From an uncultured Thermoplasmata archaeon (GTDB lineage: Archaea; Thermoplasmatota; Thermoplasmata; RBG-16-68-12), in the NCBI GenBank assembly GCA_963768855.1, contig CAVYJM010000006.1:672001-736000 (forward strand): DNA of 64,000 bases, in the 5' to 3' direction. A program made the translations under genes and the position numbers. A model generated the notes under the pieces. The model was given only the letters and a program-made list of their open reading frames with translations. It had not been told where the DNA came from and ran no database searches. Numbering within the stretch: position 1 is the first letter of the stretch; each line of letters starts with the position of its first letter. Shown here in pieces: positions 32,987 to 35,090 of the stretch.

Positions 32987-33847
32987 CTGGATGAGCTCCA
33001 ACTGAAACGGGAGAAGGAAAACCAGGAAGCCGAGCGCCATCGCCGCCGCCGCGACGAACTCAACGACAAGACGAGAGAGTGGGTCGAGAAGCGGGACGAG
33101 CTGAACGCGCAGGTCCGCGGCCTGGTCGAGGAGGCCACCGGGCACCGCATCAAGCGGGACGAGCTGAACGCCCAGGTCCGCACCGCCAAGGAGGAGCGGG
33201 ACGTGTGGAACAAGAAGGTCAACGAGCTCCTCGAGGTCGTGAACGACGCGAAGCGGAGACGACTCCCCCGCGGTGCGATCCCGATCAGCAAGCTCCGGCG
33301 GGACCTCAAGTCACTCGAATTCCGGCAGATGACCTCCGTGCTGACCGTCGAGAAGGAGCGCGCCCTGATCGAGGAGATGGCGCGGATCCAGGCCGAGCTC
33401 AAGAAGCTCGAGAAGTCCCTCGACGAGAACGAGGAGGTCCGGAAGCTCAACGACGAGCTGAAGGCGGCGAGGGACAAGGCGGAGGCCGCGCACAAGCAGG
33501 TCTCCGAGCTCGCGGAGCAGGCGCAGGGCGAGCACGACCAGATGAGCGCGCTGTACGAGAAGAGCGACGAGACGAGGCGGCAGGCCGACCAGGCGCAGGA
33601 GGAGTTCATCAAGACGAAGATGCTCGCGGACGAGGAGCACCGCAAGCACATCGAGCACATCCGCCAGGTCCACGACTACGACAAGATCATCCACGGGATC
33701 TGGATGAAGAACCGCGCCGAGTCCGGCGAGATGGTCGAGGCGACCGACGTGAAGCGCGAGGCGGAGGCCATCTTCGAGCGGTTCAAGAAGGGTGAGAAGT
33801 TGTCTACGGAGGACCTGATGACCCTCCAGAAGTCCGGCTATCTGTGA
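32987..33847 (+). CDS. archaeal coiled-coil protein (COG1340-like)
   Basis: RDELNAQV repeats, LEFRQMTSVLTVEKE, C-terminal GEKLSTEDL. Confidence 0.8.
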   Translation: MDELQLKREKENQEAERHRRRRDELNDKTREWVEKRDELNAQVRGLVEEATGHRIKRDELNAQVRTAKEERDVWNKKVNELLEVVNDAKRRRLPRGAIPISKLRRDLKSLEFRQMTSVLTVEKERALIEEMARIQAELKKLEKSLDENEEVRKLNDELKAARDKAEAAHKQVSELAEQAQGEHDQMSALYEKSDETRRQADQAQEEFIKTKMLADEEHRKHIEHIRQVHDYDKIIHGIWMKNRAESGEMVEATDVKREAEAIFERFKKGEKLSTEDLMTLQKSGYL

Positions 33848-35090
33848 CAGCTGGCAAGTTAGCCTCGCCTTTACAGTTCTGTTGGGGTGCGGCCGAGGGG
33901 GCCGCCAACTCCACTCCGCTCGGCTCCTCCCGTGCACCTGCCAGCAACGCTGGCAGATTGCAGAGGGGACTCACCACATCATGGCGGAGGGCACCGGGCT
34001 GGAACCGTACAGCCCTTGCCAAGGCCTCGTTCGAGGCCAAGGCGGATTTCAGGATGTTCAAACCTGCGTTGTGCTGCCGGTCCATTTCCCAGTCGCACAT
34101 CTCGCAGACGAAGTCCGGGCCCACCCTATCTCGGCGCCGAGCGCCACACACTGGGCAGGTCTTGCTCGTCCAGGCAGGATTGACCTTGATGATCGGCACG
34201 CCCGCGAGGGCGGCCTTGTACTCGATCTGACGATGGAGTTCGCCGCGGGGCCAGGACGACAGGCGGCGGTTCATGCGGCGGGAACGGCCACCGGAGTTAT
34301 GCAGCGTCATGTTCTCGAGGATAATCACGGCTCTTGCAGCTGCCGCGGCTTGGACTAGGCCCTTGCTGACTCGATGGAGGCGTTGTCTCACGCGGCTGTG
34401 TTCGCGTCGTCCTTCGCGAACCGCCAGGGCTCGTTGTACCCGACGGTCACAAGCTTTCTTTTTCGAGAGATGCCGTCGGCGACGGAAGTGCGTCGCCTGG
34501 ACCTGACGGACGCCGAAAAACGGCACCGACAGGAGGCGGCTTGTTGTAGGTGTGGCTACCACGCCATCGAGGGAATCTTCATTCGTGTCCATCGCGATGG
34601 CTGTCGTAGGTTCGTAAGCTTTCGGGGCTTGTTTGCGCACTACGAGGAGGATTCTGCCGGGCACAAGGGTGAGGGACCCCAGCTTCCACGAGTTAACGTT
34701 CAGGAATGAGCGATGCCACCTGCATAGTGGAAGGTTGAATTGAACCCCCTCAGTTCCCCGGATGGGGATTCGTAAACGCCCTGTCTCCCGATCCAGGCGG
34801 TAGGACTGGTTCTCCATCTTCAGCATCGGCCGCCGAAGGAAAGGGGTGGAACTCTTGCCACCCTTCCGCACACGCCTCCTGTGGGCTTTTAGAAGGCTCA
34901 ACGCGACTTCAAAGGCCGAGGGGAGGTACTGGCTGTACACGTTGTGTTCCCGGCGGAGCTCCGAATATGCGGCCTTCGCTAAGCGTGTTCTCGACCGGAC
35001 GTCTGTTCGGATAGCGATGCGGATGGATTTGTTAGTAATCAGTCTAAACTCCTTCATTAGCCAGTCGAGGCGGGGATTGTCACAGCGCAT
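33804..35090 (-). CDS. tnpB: TnpB, IS200/IS605-family RNA-guided nuclease homolog
   Basis: RuvC-I AMDTN, RuvC-II IILEN, WPRGEL...IEYKA...V.PAWTSKTCPVCG, CEMC zinc finger, RuvC-III DRQHNAGLNI. Confidence 0.92.
   Translation of the reverse strand: MRCDNPRLDWLMKEFRLITNKSIRIAIRTDVRSRTRLAKAAYSELRREHNVYSQYLPSAFEVALSLLKAHRRRVRKGGKSSTPFLRRPMLKMENQSYRLDRETGRLRIPIRGTEGVQFNLPLCRWHRSFLNVNSWKLGSLTLVPGRILLVVRKQAPKAYEPTTAIAMDTNEDSLDGVVATPTTSRLLSVPFFGVRQVQATHFRRRRHLSKKKACDRRVQRALAVREGRREHSRVRQRLHRVSKGLVQAAAAARAVIILENMTLHNSGGRSRRMNRRLSSWPRGELHRQIEYKAALAGVPIIKVNPAWTSKTCPVCGARRRDRVGPDFVCEMCDWEMDRQHNAGLNILKSALASNEALARAVRFQPGALRHDVVSPLCNLPALLAGAREEPSGVELAAPSAAPQQNCKGEANLPAVTDSRTSGGSSGPP
33824..33990 (-). ncRNA. 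predicted TnpB omega-RNA (scaffold plus guide)
   Basis: Hairpins CTGCCAGC-aac-GCTGGCAG (33938-33956) and GTTG..GCGGCC-gaggg-GGCCGC-CAAC (33881-33909) in the tnpB 3' end. The scaffold would end at TCAC, followed by guide AGATAGCCGGACTTCTGGAG. 5' end unknown. Confidence 0.5.

What the first reader, a model, noticed from the sequence alone, without database searches (positions are those of the whole stretch)
33804..35090. TnpB with the RuvC-III catalytic Asp replaced by Gln
Seen: RuvC-I (AMDTN) and RuvC-II (ILEN) are acidic, but the third motif reads MDRQHNAGLNI where canonical TnpB has xRDxNAAxNI. Both CxxC pairs are intact and the ORF is long and unbroken. Established: nuclease-dead TnpB derivatives can act as RNA-guided repressors (TldR), and some TnpB clades have rearranged catalytic residues. 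Inference: this is a dead or rearranged variant rather than simple decay.
Basis: partly seen in the sequence, partly recalled or inferred. Interest (0 to 1): 0.7.

Follow-up and report, generated by a model that had tools for sequence, protein, structure and literature searches.

The report
Gln-type TnpB in IS6-like element
This archaeal TnpB gene really has glutamine where the third catalytic aspartate should be. The change is fixed and selected in a whole Thermoplasmata family of small mobile elements, so it is an old active-site variant of a kind already surveyed in 2023, not decay or a sequencing error.

Summary
ORF 33804-35090 (-) is a TnpB-family protein with RuvC-I D168, RuvC-II E259 and both CxxC pairs intact, and Q339 (CAG, 34074-34076) sits where solved TnpB and Cas12f have the RuvC-III Asp.

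It is neither an error nor private decay. All 4 paralogs in this genome and 120 of 120 best homologs have Gln. D168 and D175 are 120/120 and E259 is 119/120. The Gln clade is deep (down to 37% identity) and well supported, with a His-bearing sister pair. The protein is under purifying selection (dN/dS about 0.1).

The gene lies in a 1.35-kb TnpB-only element (33876-35220). Related species have empty sites. The element makes a 9-bp target duplication, has IS6-like inverted ends, and carries a roughly 240-nt conserved, covarying guide-RNA scaffold over its 3' end.

A TldR-like domesticated repressor is not supported: the element is mobile, has no fixed neighbour genes, and its candidate guide has no second target in the genome.

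Whether the Gln enzyme still cuts is open. I favour an altered but working site.

The window copy itself looks immobilised: its start codon is lost and its left end is degenerate.

The scan flagged the same Gln TnpB on other contigs of this genome, and IS6-like TnpB elements in other archaea.

The parts
33876..35220 (-). Inserted TnpB-only mobile element of about 1345 bp
   Evidence: Related species (G009:C107, G014:C276, G013:C94, G037:C16) have the flanks joined with a single TTTACA and no element. The element is flanked here by TTTACA at 33870-33875 and 35221-35226.
33804..35090 (-). tnpB ORF as called (428 aa). Relatives start about 16 codons further upstream, and the last 24 or so codons lie outside the element.
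   Evidence: The AlphaFold2 model has pLDDT 88 and matches Cas12f/TnpB over its full length.
34587..34589 (-). RuvC-I Asp, D168 (GAC)
   Evidence: Invariant in 120/120 homologs and in all 54 rows of alignment A2.
34566..34568 (-). D175 (GAT), an acid specific to the Gln/His clade. It is a candidate relocated catalytic residue, not shown to be one.
   Evidence: 120/120 in the family and 94% of Gln/His rows, against Thr in 16 of 20 Asp-type relatives.
34314..34316 (-). RuvC-II Glu, E259 (GAG)
   Evidence: 119/120 homologs; invariant in A2.
34095..34157 (-). Zinc-finger cysteines C312, C315, C329, C332
   Evidence: 120/120 each.
34074..34076 (-). Q339 codon (CAG) at the RuvC-III catalytic position
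   Evidence: Aligned to the catalytic Asp of solved TnpB and Cas12f. Gln in 120/120 homologs. CAG in 35 and CAA in 1 of 36 DNA copies.
33908..34150 (-). Conserved structured RNA (omegaRNA-like scaffold) overlapping the last 80 or so codons
   Evidence: Third-codon-position conservation is 0.82-0.97 here against 0.54-0.64 upstream. Synonymous divergence pS is 0.24 against 0.72. RNAalifold gives -76 kcal/mol. In the terminal hairpin, five pairs show 8-17 compensatory double changes each, and another stem has 6. Conservation ends abruptly at 33908 in every copy.
33876..33907 (-). Right end of the element: a variable hairpin segment ending in CAACAGAAC
   Evidence: All copies end in (G)ACAGAAC(C) 25-50 nt after the scaffold. 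In well-kept copies this segment is the inverted repeat of the left end.
35185..35220 (-). Left end, degenerate in this copy (CCACCGTTACTTTGTGAG instead of GGTTCTGTNACAAGTCGGGTGATG)
   Evidence: No match to the left-end consensus at this place in the genome-wide scan.
35168..35184 (-). Conserved motif GGGATTACCACTTTCAC upstream of tnpB, shared by the paralogs; function unknown
35221..35239 (+). Target site: the duplicated TTTACA followed by AAAATCTTATATA, the BRE/TATA-like motif of the neighbouring small RNA gene
   Evidence: 14 of 14 resolvable copies have W2AAG-N2-TT(T) directly 5' of the duplication on the element strand.

Best explanation
Shown. This is one copy of a Thermoplasmata-wide TnpB family in which the RuvC-III aspartate has been replaced by a fixed glutamine. 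The protein keeps the TnpB/Cas12f fold, the RuvC-I Asp, the RuvC-II Glu and the zinc finger, and it is under purifying selection. A roughly 240-nt structured RNA overlaps the 3' end of the gene. The gene rides in a 1.3-1.4-kb TnpB-only element with IS6-like inverted ends (GGTTCTGT...ACAGAACC) and a 9-bp target duplication. The element is present or absent among related species.

Inferred. The Gln arose from Asp through His in single-base steps (GAY to CAY to CAR), because the sister pair carries His. The site is a selected, altered active site of the 'RuvC-III rearranged' kind, not a decayed one. Most likely it still carries out some RuvC chemistry, such as guide-RNA processing or DNA cutting or nicking with changed metal use. 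It may be helped by the clade-specific D175, or by E171, next to D168. The element cannot move itself and is moved in trans by an IS6-like DDE transposase. The guide is the DNA beyond the right end, that is the duplication plus flank. The T-rich motif left of the duplication then acts as the target-adjacent motif, so the RNA-protein complex recognises unoccupied sites.

The window copy itself is probably immobile and may be impaired. The usual ATG is CTT, the left end is degenerate, and the reading frame runs through the right end into flanking DNA.
For: - **Family and fold.**
- **Position of the Gln.** Q339 aligns with the catalytic Asp.
- **Conservation.** Gln is in all 4 paralogs and in 120/120 homologs. 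D168, D175 and the four Cys are 120/120 and E259 is 119/120.
- **Tree.** The 24-row Gln clade has 99% SH-aLRT support, spans 37-75% identity, and has the His pair P0125/P0126 as sister. Asp types lie on the other side of the tree.
- **Synonymous change.** CAG and CAA both occur at the Gln codon.
- **Selection.** dN/dS is about 0.11-0.16 in the 5' part. The end branch of the window copy is not longer than its neighbours'.
- **RNA.**
- **Mobility.** Empty sites, duplications and ends, a roughly 225-bp deletion derivative with its own duplication in G008, and patchy occurrence in 28 of 79 genomes of the order.
- **Literature.** PMC10691335 reports six large TnpB branches with an altered RuvC-III motif, some nearly archaea-only, and infers that activity is retained. 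PMC10705468 reports that single apparent DED losses often have an intact triad with the residue elsewhere.
Against: - No activity data exist for any Gln-type TnpB, and I found no paper on one.
- Mutating any DED residue abolishes cleavage in studied TnpBs (stated in PMC10705468). An amide is a poor ligand for Mg2+.
- The compensating residue is only a candidate. By strand register D175 may point away from D168. A DG pair near this spot in ordinary TnpBs is my recollection, not tested here.
- No IS6-type (PF13610) or Y1 (PF01797) transposase was found in this genome, which is 93.6% complete. IS6-like elements elsewhere in the order share only the terminal 8-9 nt of the ends.
- The guide position is inferred, not shown.
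Confidence: 0.55

Rival explanations
1. Nuclease-dead, binding-only TnpB. The Gln kills cleavage, and the family is kept because RNA-guided or motif-guided DNA binding helps the element. It could steer insertion next to the target motif, or block or regulate something at the site, in the way Cas12k, Cas12m and TldR act without cutting.
For: The third catalytic acid is absent in 120/120 homologs, and in one relative (P0127, NRQ) the whole RuvC-III motif has no acid. Insertions have a fixed orientation and spacing relative to a one-sided motif in 14 of 14 copies, which an ordinary IS6-type transposase is not known to produce (my recollection). Nuclease-dead TnpB and Cas12 relatives that act by binding are established (PMC10705468, PMC10691335).
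Against: [quoted passage not shown] There is no conserved partner gene. The candidate guide has no second genomic target. The position alternates among Asp, His and Gln, all of which can bind metal or water, and is never a hydrophobic residue.
Confidence: 0.3
2. The window copy is a functionless relic. Whatever the family does, this copy is a dead, immobilised remnant on its way to becoming a pseudogene.
For: The canonical ATG is CTT, so the first beta-strand cannot be translated from a standard start. The left inverted repeat is degenerate. The usual stop is lost and the frame reads into flanking DNA. The copy deviates at 9 of 197 strongly conserved positions, against 0-5 in six other members, and three of the deviations (M167, M261, N265) lie next to D168 and E259.
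Against: The 428-codon frame is still open in a genome of about 66% G+C. Its end branch (0.18) is no longer than its neighbours'. The RNA scaffold is 95-98% identical to the other three copies. A non-standard start cannot be excluded.
Confidence: 0.15

Closest known systems
TnpB branches with a rearranged RuvC-III motif ('RIIIr', Altae-Tran et al. 2023, PMC10691335)
   Same: A branch-wide, conserved replacement of the RuvC-III Asp with RuvC-I and RuvC-II kept. Some such branches are almost only archaeal. The authors read the conservation as retained activity.
   Different: The only substitution described in the main text is Asp to His (RIIIr-4), which also lacks the zinc finger and pairs with an RHH/MazE gene. 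Here the residue is Gln, the zinc finger is intact and there is no such neighbour. I could not map this clade to a named branch because the supplement is not held.
ISDra2 TnpB and Cas12f (solved RNA-guided nucleases)
   Same: Same fold over the whole length (Foldseek E 1e-15 to 1e-8), same order of RuvC-I, RuvC-II, zinc finger and RuvC-III, and a guide-RNA scaffold overlapping the 3' end of the gene.
   Different: Gln instead of the catalytic Asp. RuvC-I reads DTNExSLDG. The host element has inverted ends and a 9-bp duplication, not IS200/IS605 ends, and no TnpA.
DDE-transposase-associated and solo TnpBs between inverted ends (DDE-1 to DDE-6, PMC10691335)
   Same: tnpB and its RNA lie between inverted terminal repeats, with the 3' end of tnpB close to the right end. 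Solo copies are presumably moved in trans.
   Different: The partner transposase was not identified here. The ends resemble IS6-family ends only in their first 8-9 nt when compared with IS6-like elements of the same order. This family adds the Gln substitution.
TldR, TnpB-like nuclease-dead repressors (PMC10705468)
   Same: TnpB fold with a changed RuvC triad and a retained guide-RNA scaffold.
   Different: TldRs were screened for two or more lost catalytic residues and often lack the C-terminal part. They have no transposon ends, sit beside fixed non-transposon genes, and carry guides that match host promoters. None of this is seen here.
Cas12k of type V-K CRISPR-associated transposons
   Same: A TnpB/Cas12 relative without a working RuvC that serves a transposon. 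Insertions are one-sided and at a fixed distance from a recognition motif.
   Different: Cas12k works with Tn7-like TnsB/TnsC/TniQ and a CRISPR array, and inserts 60-66 bp from the PAM (my recollection). Here the spacing is about 10 bp and no partner proteins are encoded.

Membership tests
TnpB family (RNA-guided endonuclease TnpB) | Sequence match to curated TnpB models above their cut-offs | tested here: met
   NF040570 scores 104.5 bits (cut-off 100), PF07282 70.1 bits (cut-off 26.3), TIGR01766 53.6 bits (cut-off 32).
TnpB family (RNA-guided endonuclease TnpB) | WED-REC-RuvC-zinc finger fold | tested here: met
   AlphaFold2 pLDDT 88.3, pTM 0.80. The best Foldseek matches are Cas12f, ISDra2 TnpB, ISFba1 TnpB and Fanzor2, with TM about 0.5-0.6.
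TnpB family (RNA-guided endonuclease TnpB) | Asp-Glu-Asp catalytic triad of the RuvC domain | tested here: not met
   D168 and E259 are present. The third position is Q339.
TnpB family (RNA-guided endonuclease TnpB) | Guide-RNA (omegaRNA) scaffold overlapping the 3' end of the gene and ending at a sharp boundary | tested here: met
   The guide itself and expression of the RNA were not testable here.
IS200/IS605 or IS607 TnpB transposon | Y1 or serine TnpA, asymmetric ends, no target duplication | tested here: not met
   No PF01797 in the genome. The ends are inverted repeats and there is a 9-bp duplication. Serine recombinase was not searched.
RuvC-III rearranged TnpB branches (PMC10691335) | Branch-wide conserved replacement of the RuvC-III Asp with RuvC-I and RuvC-II retained | tested here: met
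RuvC-III rearranged TnpB branches (PMC10691335) | Assignment to a named branch (RIIIr-4: His, no zinc finger, RHH/MazE neighbour; RIIIr-6: archaeal) | tested here: inconclusive
   It is not RIIIr-4: the residue is Gln, the zinc finger is present, and the neighbours are DUF7121, DUF1801 and SRP54. The paper's tables are not held, so other branches cannot be checked.
TldR (nuclease-dead repressor) | Two or more lost catalytic residues or a truncated C-terminal RuvC/zinc-finger part | tested here: not met
   One residue is changed and the C-terminal part is intact.
TldR (nuclease-dead repressor) | No transposon ends, and a conserved association with a non-transposon gene | tested here: not met
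   Empty sites, a duplication and inverted ends are present. Neighbours differ between copies.
TldR (nuclease-dead repressor) | Guide complementary to a host promoter elsewhere | tested here: not met
   The 40 nt after the scaffold of all four copies have no second match in the genome beyond 13-14 nt, with E about 1.
IS6-like DDE transposon (non-autonomous member) | Inverted ends starting GG(N)TCTGT and an 8-9-bp target duplication | tested here: met
   In relatives the ends match at about 21 of the first 24 positions (L036, L046) and duplications are 9 bp. In the window copy the right end is kept and the left end is degenerate.
IS6-like DDE transposon (non-autonomous member) | A DDE transposase of the IS6/IS240 type with matching ends available in trans | tested here: inconclusive
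   PF13610 is absent from this genome and present in 21 of 79 genomes of the order. Three such loci have ends GG(A/T)TCTGTC..GTTAAGTAGGAT that agree with the TnpB elements only in the first 8-9 nt.

The most novel reading that the evidence does not exclude
The Gln-type TnpB is a naturally nuclease-attenuated reader of a target motif. It steers an IS6-like transposase, supplied in trans, to the upstream edge of archaeal BRE/TATA promoters, which would make it a minimal CAST-like partnership built on TnpB. This reading would explain three things: the one-sided W2AAG-N2-TT(T) motif at a fixed 9-10 bp from every insertion, the fixed orientation with tnpB divergent from the host gene, and selection for Gln while D168 and E259 are kept.
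Probability: 0.07. Interest if true: 0.85.

Novelty: new member of a known kind. Interest (0 to 1): 0.45.

Why it matters
If the Gln-type site still cuts or nicks, it widens the known chemistry of RuvC domains in RNA-guided enzymes and offers a compact archaeal scaffold with different metal or strand behaviour. If it does not cut, it would be a mobile-element TnpB family, found in 28 of 79 genomes searched in one archaeal order, that serves its transposon by binding alone, which would bear on how Cas12k-like and TldR-like systems begin. Either way the question is directly testable: the family is large, its RNA scaffold and boundaries are now defined, and intact copies with good ends are available (for example L036 and L046). 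For the scan the practical lesson is that a single missing catalytic residue in TnpB is usually a clade feature and should be checked against homologs before it is called dead.

Tried and rejected
- **Sequencing error or private mutation.** Rejected: Gln is in 4/4 paralogs and 120/120 homologs.
- **TldR-like guide targeting a host promoter.** The 40 nt after the scaffold of all four copies were searched against the genome. Only chance-level matches appeared. A 13-nt match of the L002 flank about 280 nt upstream of the L003 element has E about 1 and no supporting context.
- **IS200/IS605 reading.** Rejected: no Y1 transposase, and the ends are inverted repeats with a duplication.
- **D337 (first Asp of DRQ) as the substitute acid.** Rejected as a general solution. 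It is Asn in the Gln-bearing P0127 and in several His-bearing relatives, and is Asn or Tyr in 2 of the 120 homologs.
- **Rfam and tRNA scans of 33000-36500.** Nothing found.
- **Partner transposase with identical ends.** The left-end consensus occurs once in this genome, at the L002 element itself. IS6-type loci in the order gave only a partial match at the ends.
- **The search for related loci on genome contigs.** Only 8 loci were returned because the peptide patterns were too specific.
- **Concerted evolution of the 3' block within this genome.** Weakly supported only: 92-98% identity within the genome against a median of 88% between genomes, but some between-genome pairs also reach 98%.
- **Supplement of PMC10691335.** Not held. 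A text search for 'RIIIr' returned only unrelated papers.
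Full report
**What is there.**
The ORF at 33804-35090 on the minus strand is open for 428 codons. It passes the curated TnpB models: NCBIfam guided_TnpB at 104.5 bits against a cut-off of 100, and Pfam Cas12f1-like TNB at 70 bits. HMMER alignments to solved structures place Q339 exactly on the RuvC-III catalytic Asp of an ISDra2-like TnpB (DRDENAALNI) and of Cas12f (NADYNAARNI). An AlphaFold2 model built on 54 relatives is confident (pLDDT 88, pTM 0.80). It matches Cas12f, ISDra2 TnpB, ISFba1 TnpB and Fanzor2 over the whole length.

**Not an error and not private decay.**
- The genome (2.87 Mb, 24 contigs, 93.6% complete) holds four copies that are 70-74% identical in protein. 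All four read DRQHNAGLNI.
- The large protein collection holds more than 500 relatives, named where named at all as Thermoplasmata, Thermoplasmatota, Methanobacteriota or Methanomassiliicoccales MAG proteins.
- In the best 120, Q339 is 120/120, D168 120/120, E259 119/120 and the four cysteines 120/120.
- In 36 DNA copies the codon is CAG 35 times and CAA once. This is a synonymous change, as expected if Gln is selected at the protein level.
- Among representatives of 50%-identity clusters, the nearest ones (37-62% identical) carry Gln or His at this position (DRQ, NRQ, DKQ, DRH, NRH, NKH). The canonical DRD appears only at about 32% identity or less.
- A maximum-likelihood tree gives a Gln clade of 24 rows with 99% SH-aLRT support. 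A His-bearing pair is its sister, and the Asp types lie across the tree.
- Asp (GAY), His (CAY) and Gln (CAR) are connected by single-base steps, so Asp to His to Gln is the simplest path. This is inference.
- The 5' two-thirds of the gene has dN/dS of about 0.11-0.16 with synonymous sites near saturation. The window copy's end branch is not longer than its neighbours'.

**A structured RNA overlaps the 3' end.**
- In the four paralogs, the last 370 nt or so before window position 33908 are 94-98% identical, while the rest of the gene is about 70% identical. Similarity stops abruptly at 33908.
- Across 34 distinct copies from many genomes, third-codon-position conservation is 0.82-0.97 between 34147 and 33908, against 0.54-0.64 further upstream.
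- Synonymous divergence drops from 0.72 to 0.24.
- RNAalifold on 36 copies gives -76 kcal/mol. In the terminal hairpin, five base pairs are each kept through 8-17 double changes. Another stem switches U-A to C-G in six copies.
- This is the signature of an omegaRNA-like scaffold of about 240 nt. No Rfam family matches it.
- The Gln codon lies inside this doubly constrained stretch.

**The gene sits in a mobile element that is not of the IS200/IS605 type.**
- In G009, G014, G013 and G037 the flanking DUF7121 gene and a conserved small RNA gene are adjacent, with a single TTTACA between them. In the window, 1345 bp (33876-35220) are inserted and TTTACA is on both sides.
- The paralog L002 has a perfect empty site in G009 and a 10-nt repeat, CGGAATGTAC, at both junctions.
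- In thirteen or so resolvable copies the duplication is 9 bp and the element ends read GGTTCTGT...ACAGAACC. The best-kept copies have imperfect inverted repeats of about 24 nt, matching at about 21 of the first 24 positions in L036 and L046.
- All elements are 1.33-1.43 kb and carry only tnpB.
- No Y1 transposase (PF01797) and no IS6/IS240-type DDE transposase (PF13610) is found in this genome.
- PF13610 is found in 21 of 79 genomes of the order. Three such loci have ends that share the first 8-9 nt with the TnpB elements. GGTTCTGT is also how I recall IS6-family ends such as IS257; this is memory, not a test.
I could confirm it only in part.
- The family is patchy, found in 28 of 79 genomes of the order. 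A few copies carry internal stops.
- G008 holds a 225-bp internal-deletion derivative with its own 10-bp duplication. All of this is typical of trans-mobilised elements.

**Target sites.**
On the element strand, all 14 resolvable copies have W2AAG-N2-TT(T) immediately 5' of the duplication, always on the left side. Read on the other strand this is AAA-NN-CTTAWW, which looks like an archaeal BRE/TATA. In five cases a divergent ORF of 400 aa or more, or the small RNA in the window, starts within about 50 nt of the motif. A second species (G011) has an independent copy, only 71% identical, at the same site as the window copy. The motif could be the target-adjacent motif of TnpB, the preference of the transposase, or both. 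This is unresolved.

**Dead or rearranged?**
For a working but altered site:
- D168 and E259 stay invariant through a clade as deep as 37% identity. Known dead lineages, by contrast, lose the remaining catalytic residues and the C-terminal part stepwise (PMC10705468).
- The position toggles among Asp, His and Gln, never a hydrophobic residue.
- A clade-specific acid, D175, is 120/120 in the family and in 94% of Gln/His rows, where 16 of 20 Asp-type relatives have Thr. E171 shows the same pattern.
- The 2023 census reads such branch-wide RuvC-III changes as retained activity (PMC10691335).
- The TldR authors found that single apparent losses often hide an intact triad (PMC10705468).

Against it:
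- In studied TnpBs any DED mutation abolishes cleavage.
- An amide is a weak metal ligand.
- One Gln-bearing relative has no acid at all in motif III.

I put a working altered site at roughly 0.55 and a binding-only protein at 0.3.

**The TldR reading fails its defining tests.**
The element is mobile and has no fixed neighbour genes. Only one catalytic residue is changed. The 40 nt after the scaffold have no second genomic match.

**State of the window copy.**
- Relatives start M..(V/H)R(S/A)L(S/V)F. Here the aligned ATG is CTT, and no ATG, GTG or TTG precedes the first beta-strand.
- The left inverted repeat is degenerate.
- The frame runs through the right end, and about 24 codons lie in flanking DNA, overlapping the end of the DUF7121 gene.
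- It deviates at 9 of 197 strongly conserved positions against 0-5 for six other members. Three of these (M167, M261, N265) lie next to D168 and E259.
- It is therefore probably immobile and may be weakened, although the frame is still open.

**Novelty.**
TnpB branches with an altered RuvC-III motif, some archaeal, and TnpBs between inverted ends moved by DDE transposases, were both surveyed in 2023 (PMC10691335). I found no paper that describes a Gln at this position or tests one. The scan has already flagged the same Gln TnpB on other contigs of this genome and IS6-like TnpB-only elements in other archaea. I therefore class this as a new member of a known kind. It is of moderate interest because the biochemical state of the Gln site is open and testable.

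Noticed in passing
window 35250-35335 (+), promoter-like motif at 35227-35239: An 85-nt unit with a BRE/TATA-like motif upstream and a T-run at its end. It is 87-99% identical across the genus and lies beside SRP54. There is no tRNA or Rfam match, and its fold is only weakly better than shuffles (z -1.66). Probably an unclassified small RNA.
   Followed up: partly
left junctions of L001, L002, L003, L007, L009, L014, L036, L043, L044, L046, L048, L054, L055, L058: Every resolvable insertion lies 9-10 bp from a one-sided W2AAG-N2-TT(T) motif. On the other strand this reads like an archaeal BRE/TATA, with a divergent long ORF or small RNA starting within about 50 nt in five cases. The elements seem to land just upstream of host promoters, with tnpB pointing away.
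   Followed up: partly
G011:C115 (L009), same site as window 33876-35220: A second species carries a copy only 71% identical in protein at exactly the same TTTACA site, while closer relatives have the site empty. This suggests independent insertion into a preferred target.
   Followed up: partly
L079 about 455-690 (G008:C88); L080 and L081 (G008:C44, C163): L079 holds a 225-bp deletion derivative (left end plus the last 85 nt of the RNA scaffold plus the right end) with its own 10-bp duplication. L080 and L081 are two near-identical copies of another short repeat that carries a related scaffold 3' module without tnpB. These may be stand-alone guide-RNA elements.
   Followed up: partly
window 33908-34275 versus L002, L003, L004: The 3' block of the four copies in this genome is 92-98% identical, while their 5' parts are about 70% identical. 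Between genomes the median is 88%, though some pairs also reach 98%. Gene conversion within the genome is therefore possible but not shown.
   Followed up: partly
window 35168-35184 (-): GGGATTACCACTTTCAC, about 80 nt upstream of tnpB, is conserved among paralogs that are otherwise unalignable there. It may be a promoter or a protein-binding site of the element.
   Followed up: no
window 33804-33847: The read-through tail of the tnpB ORF overlaps the 3' end of the convergent DUF7121 gene (32978-33847) by 44 nt.
   Followed up: no
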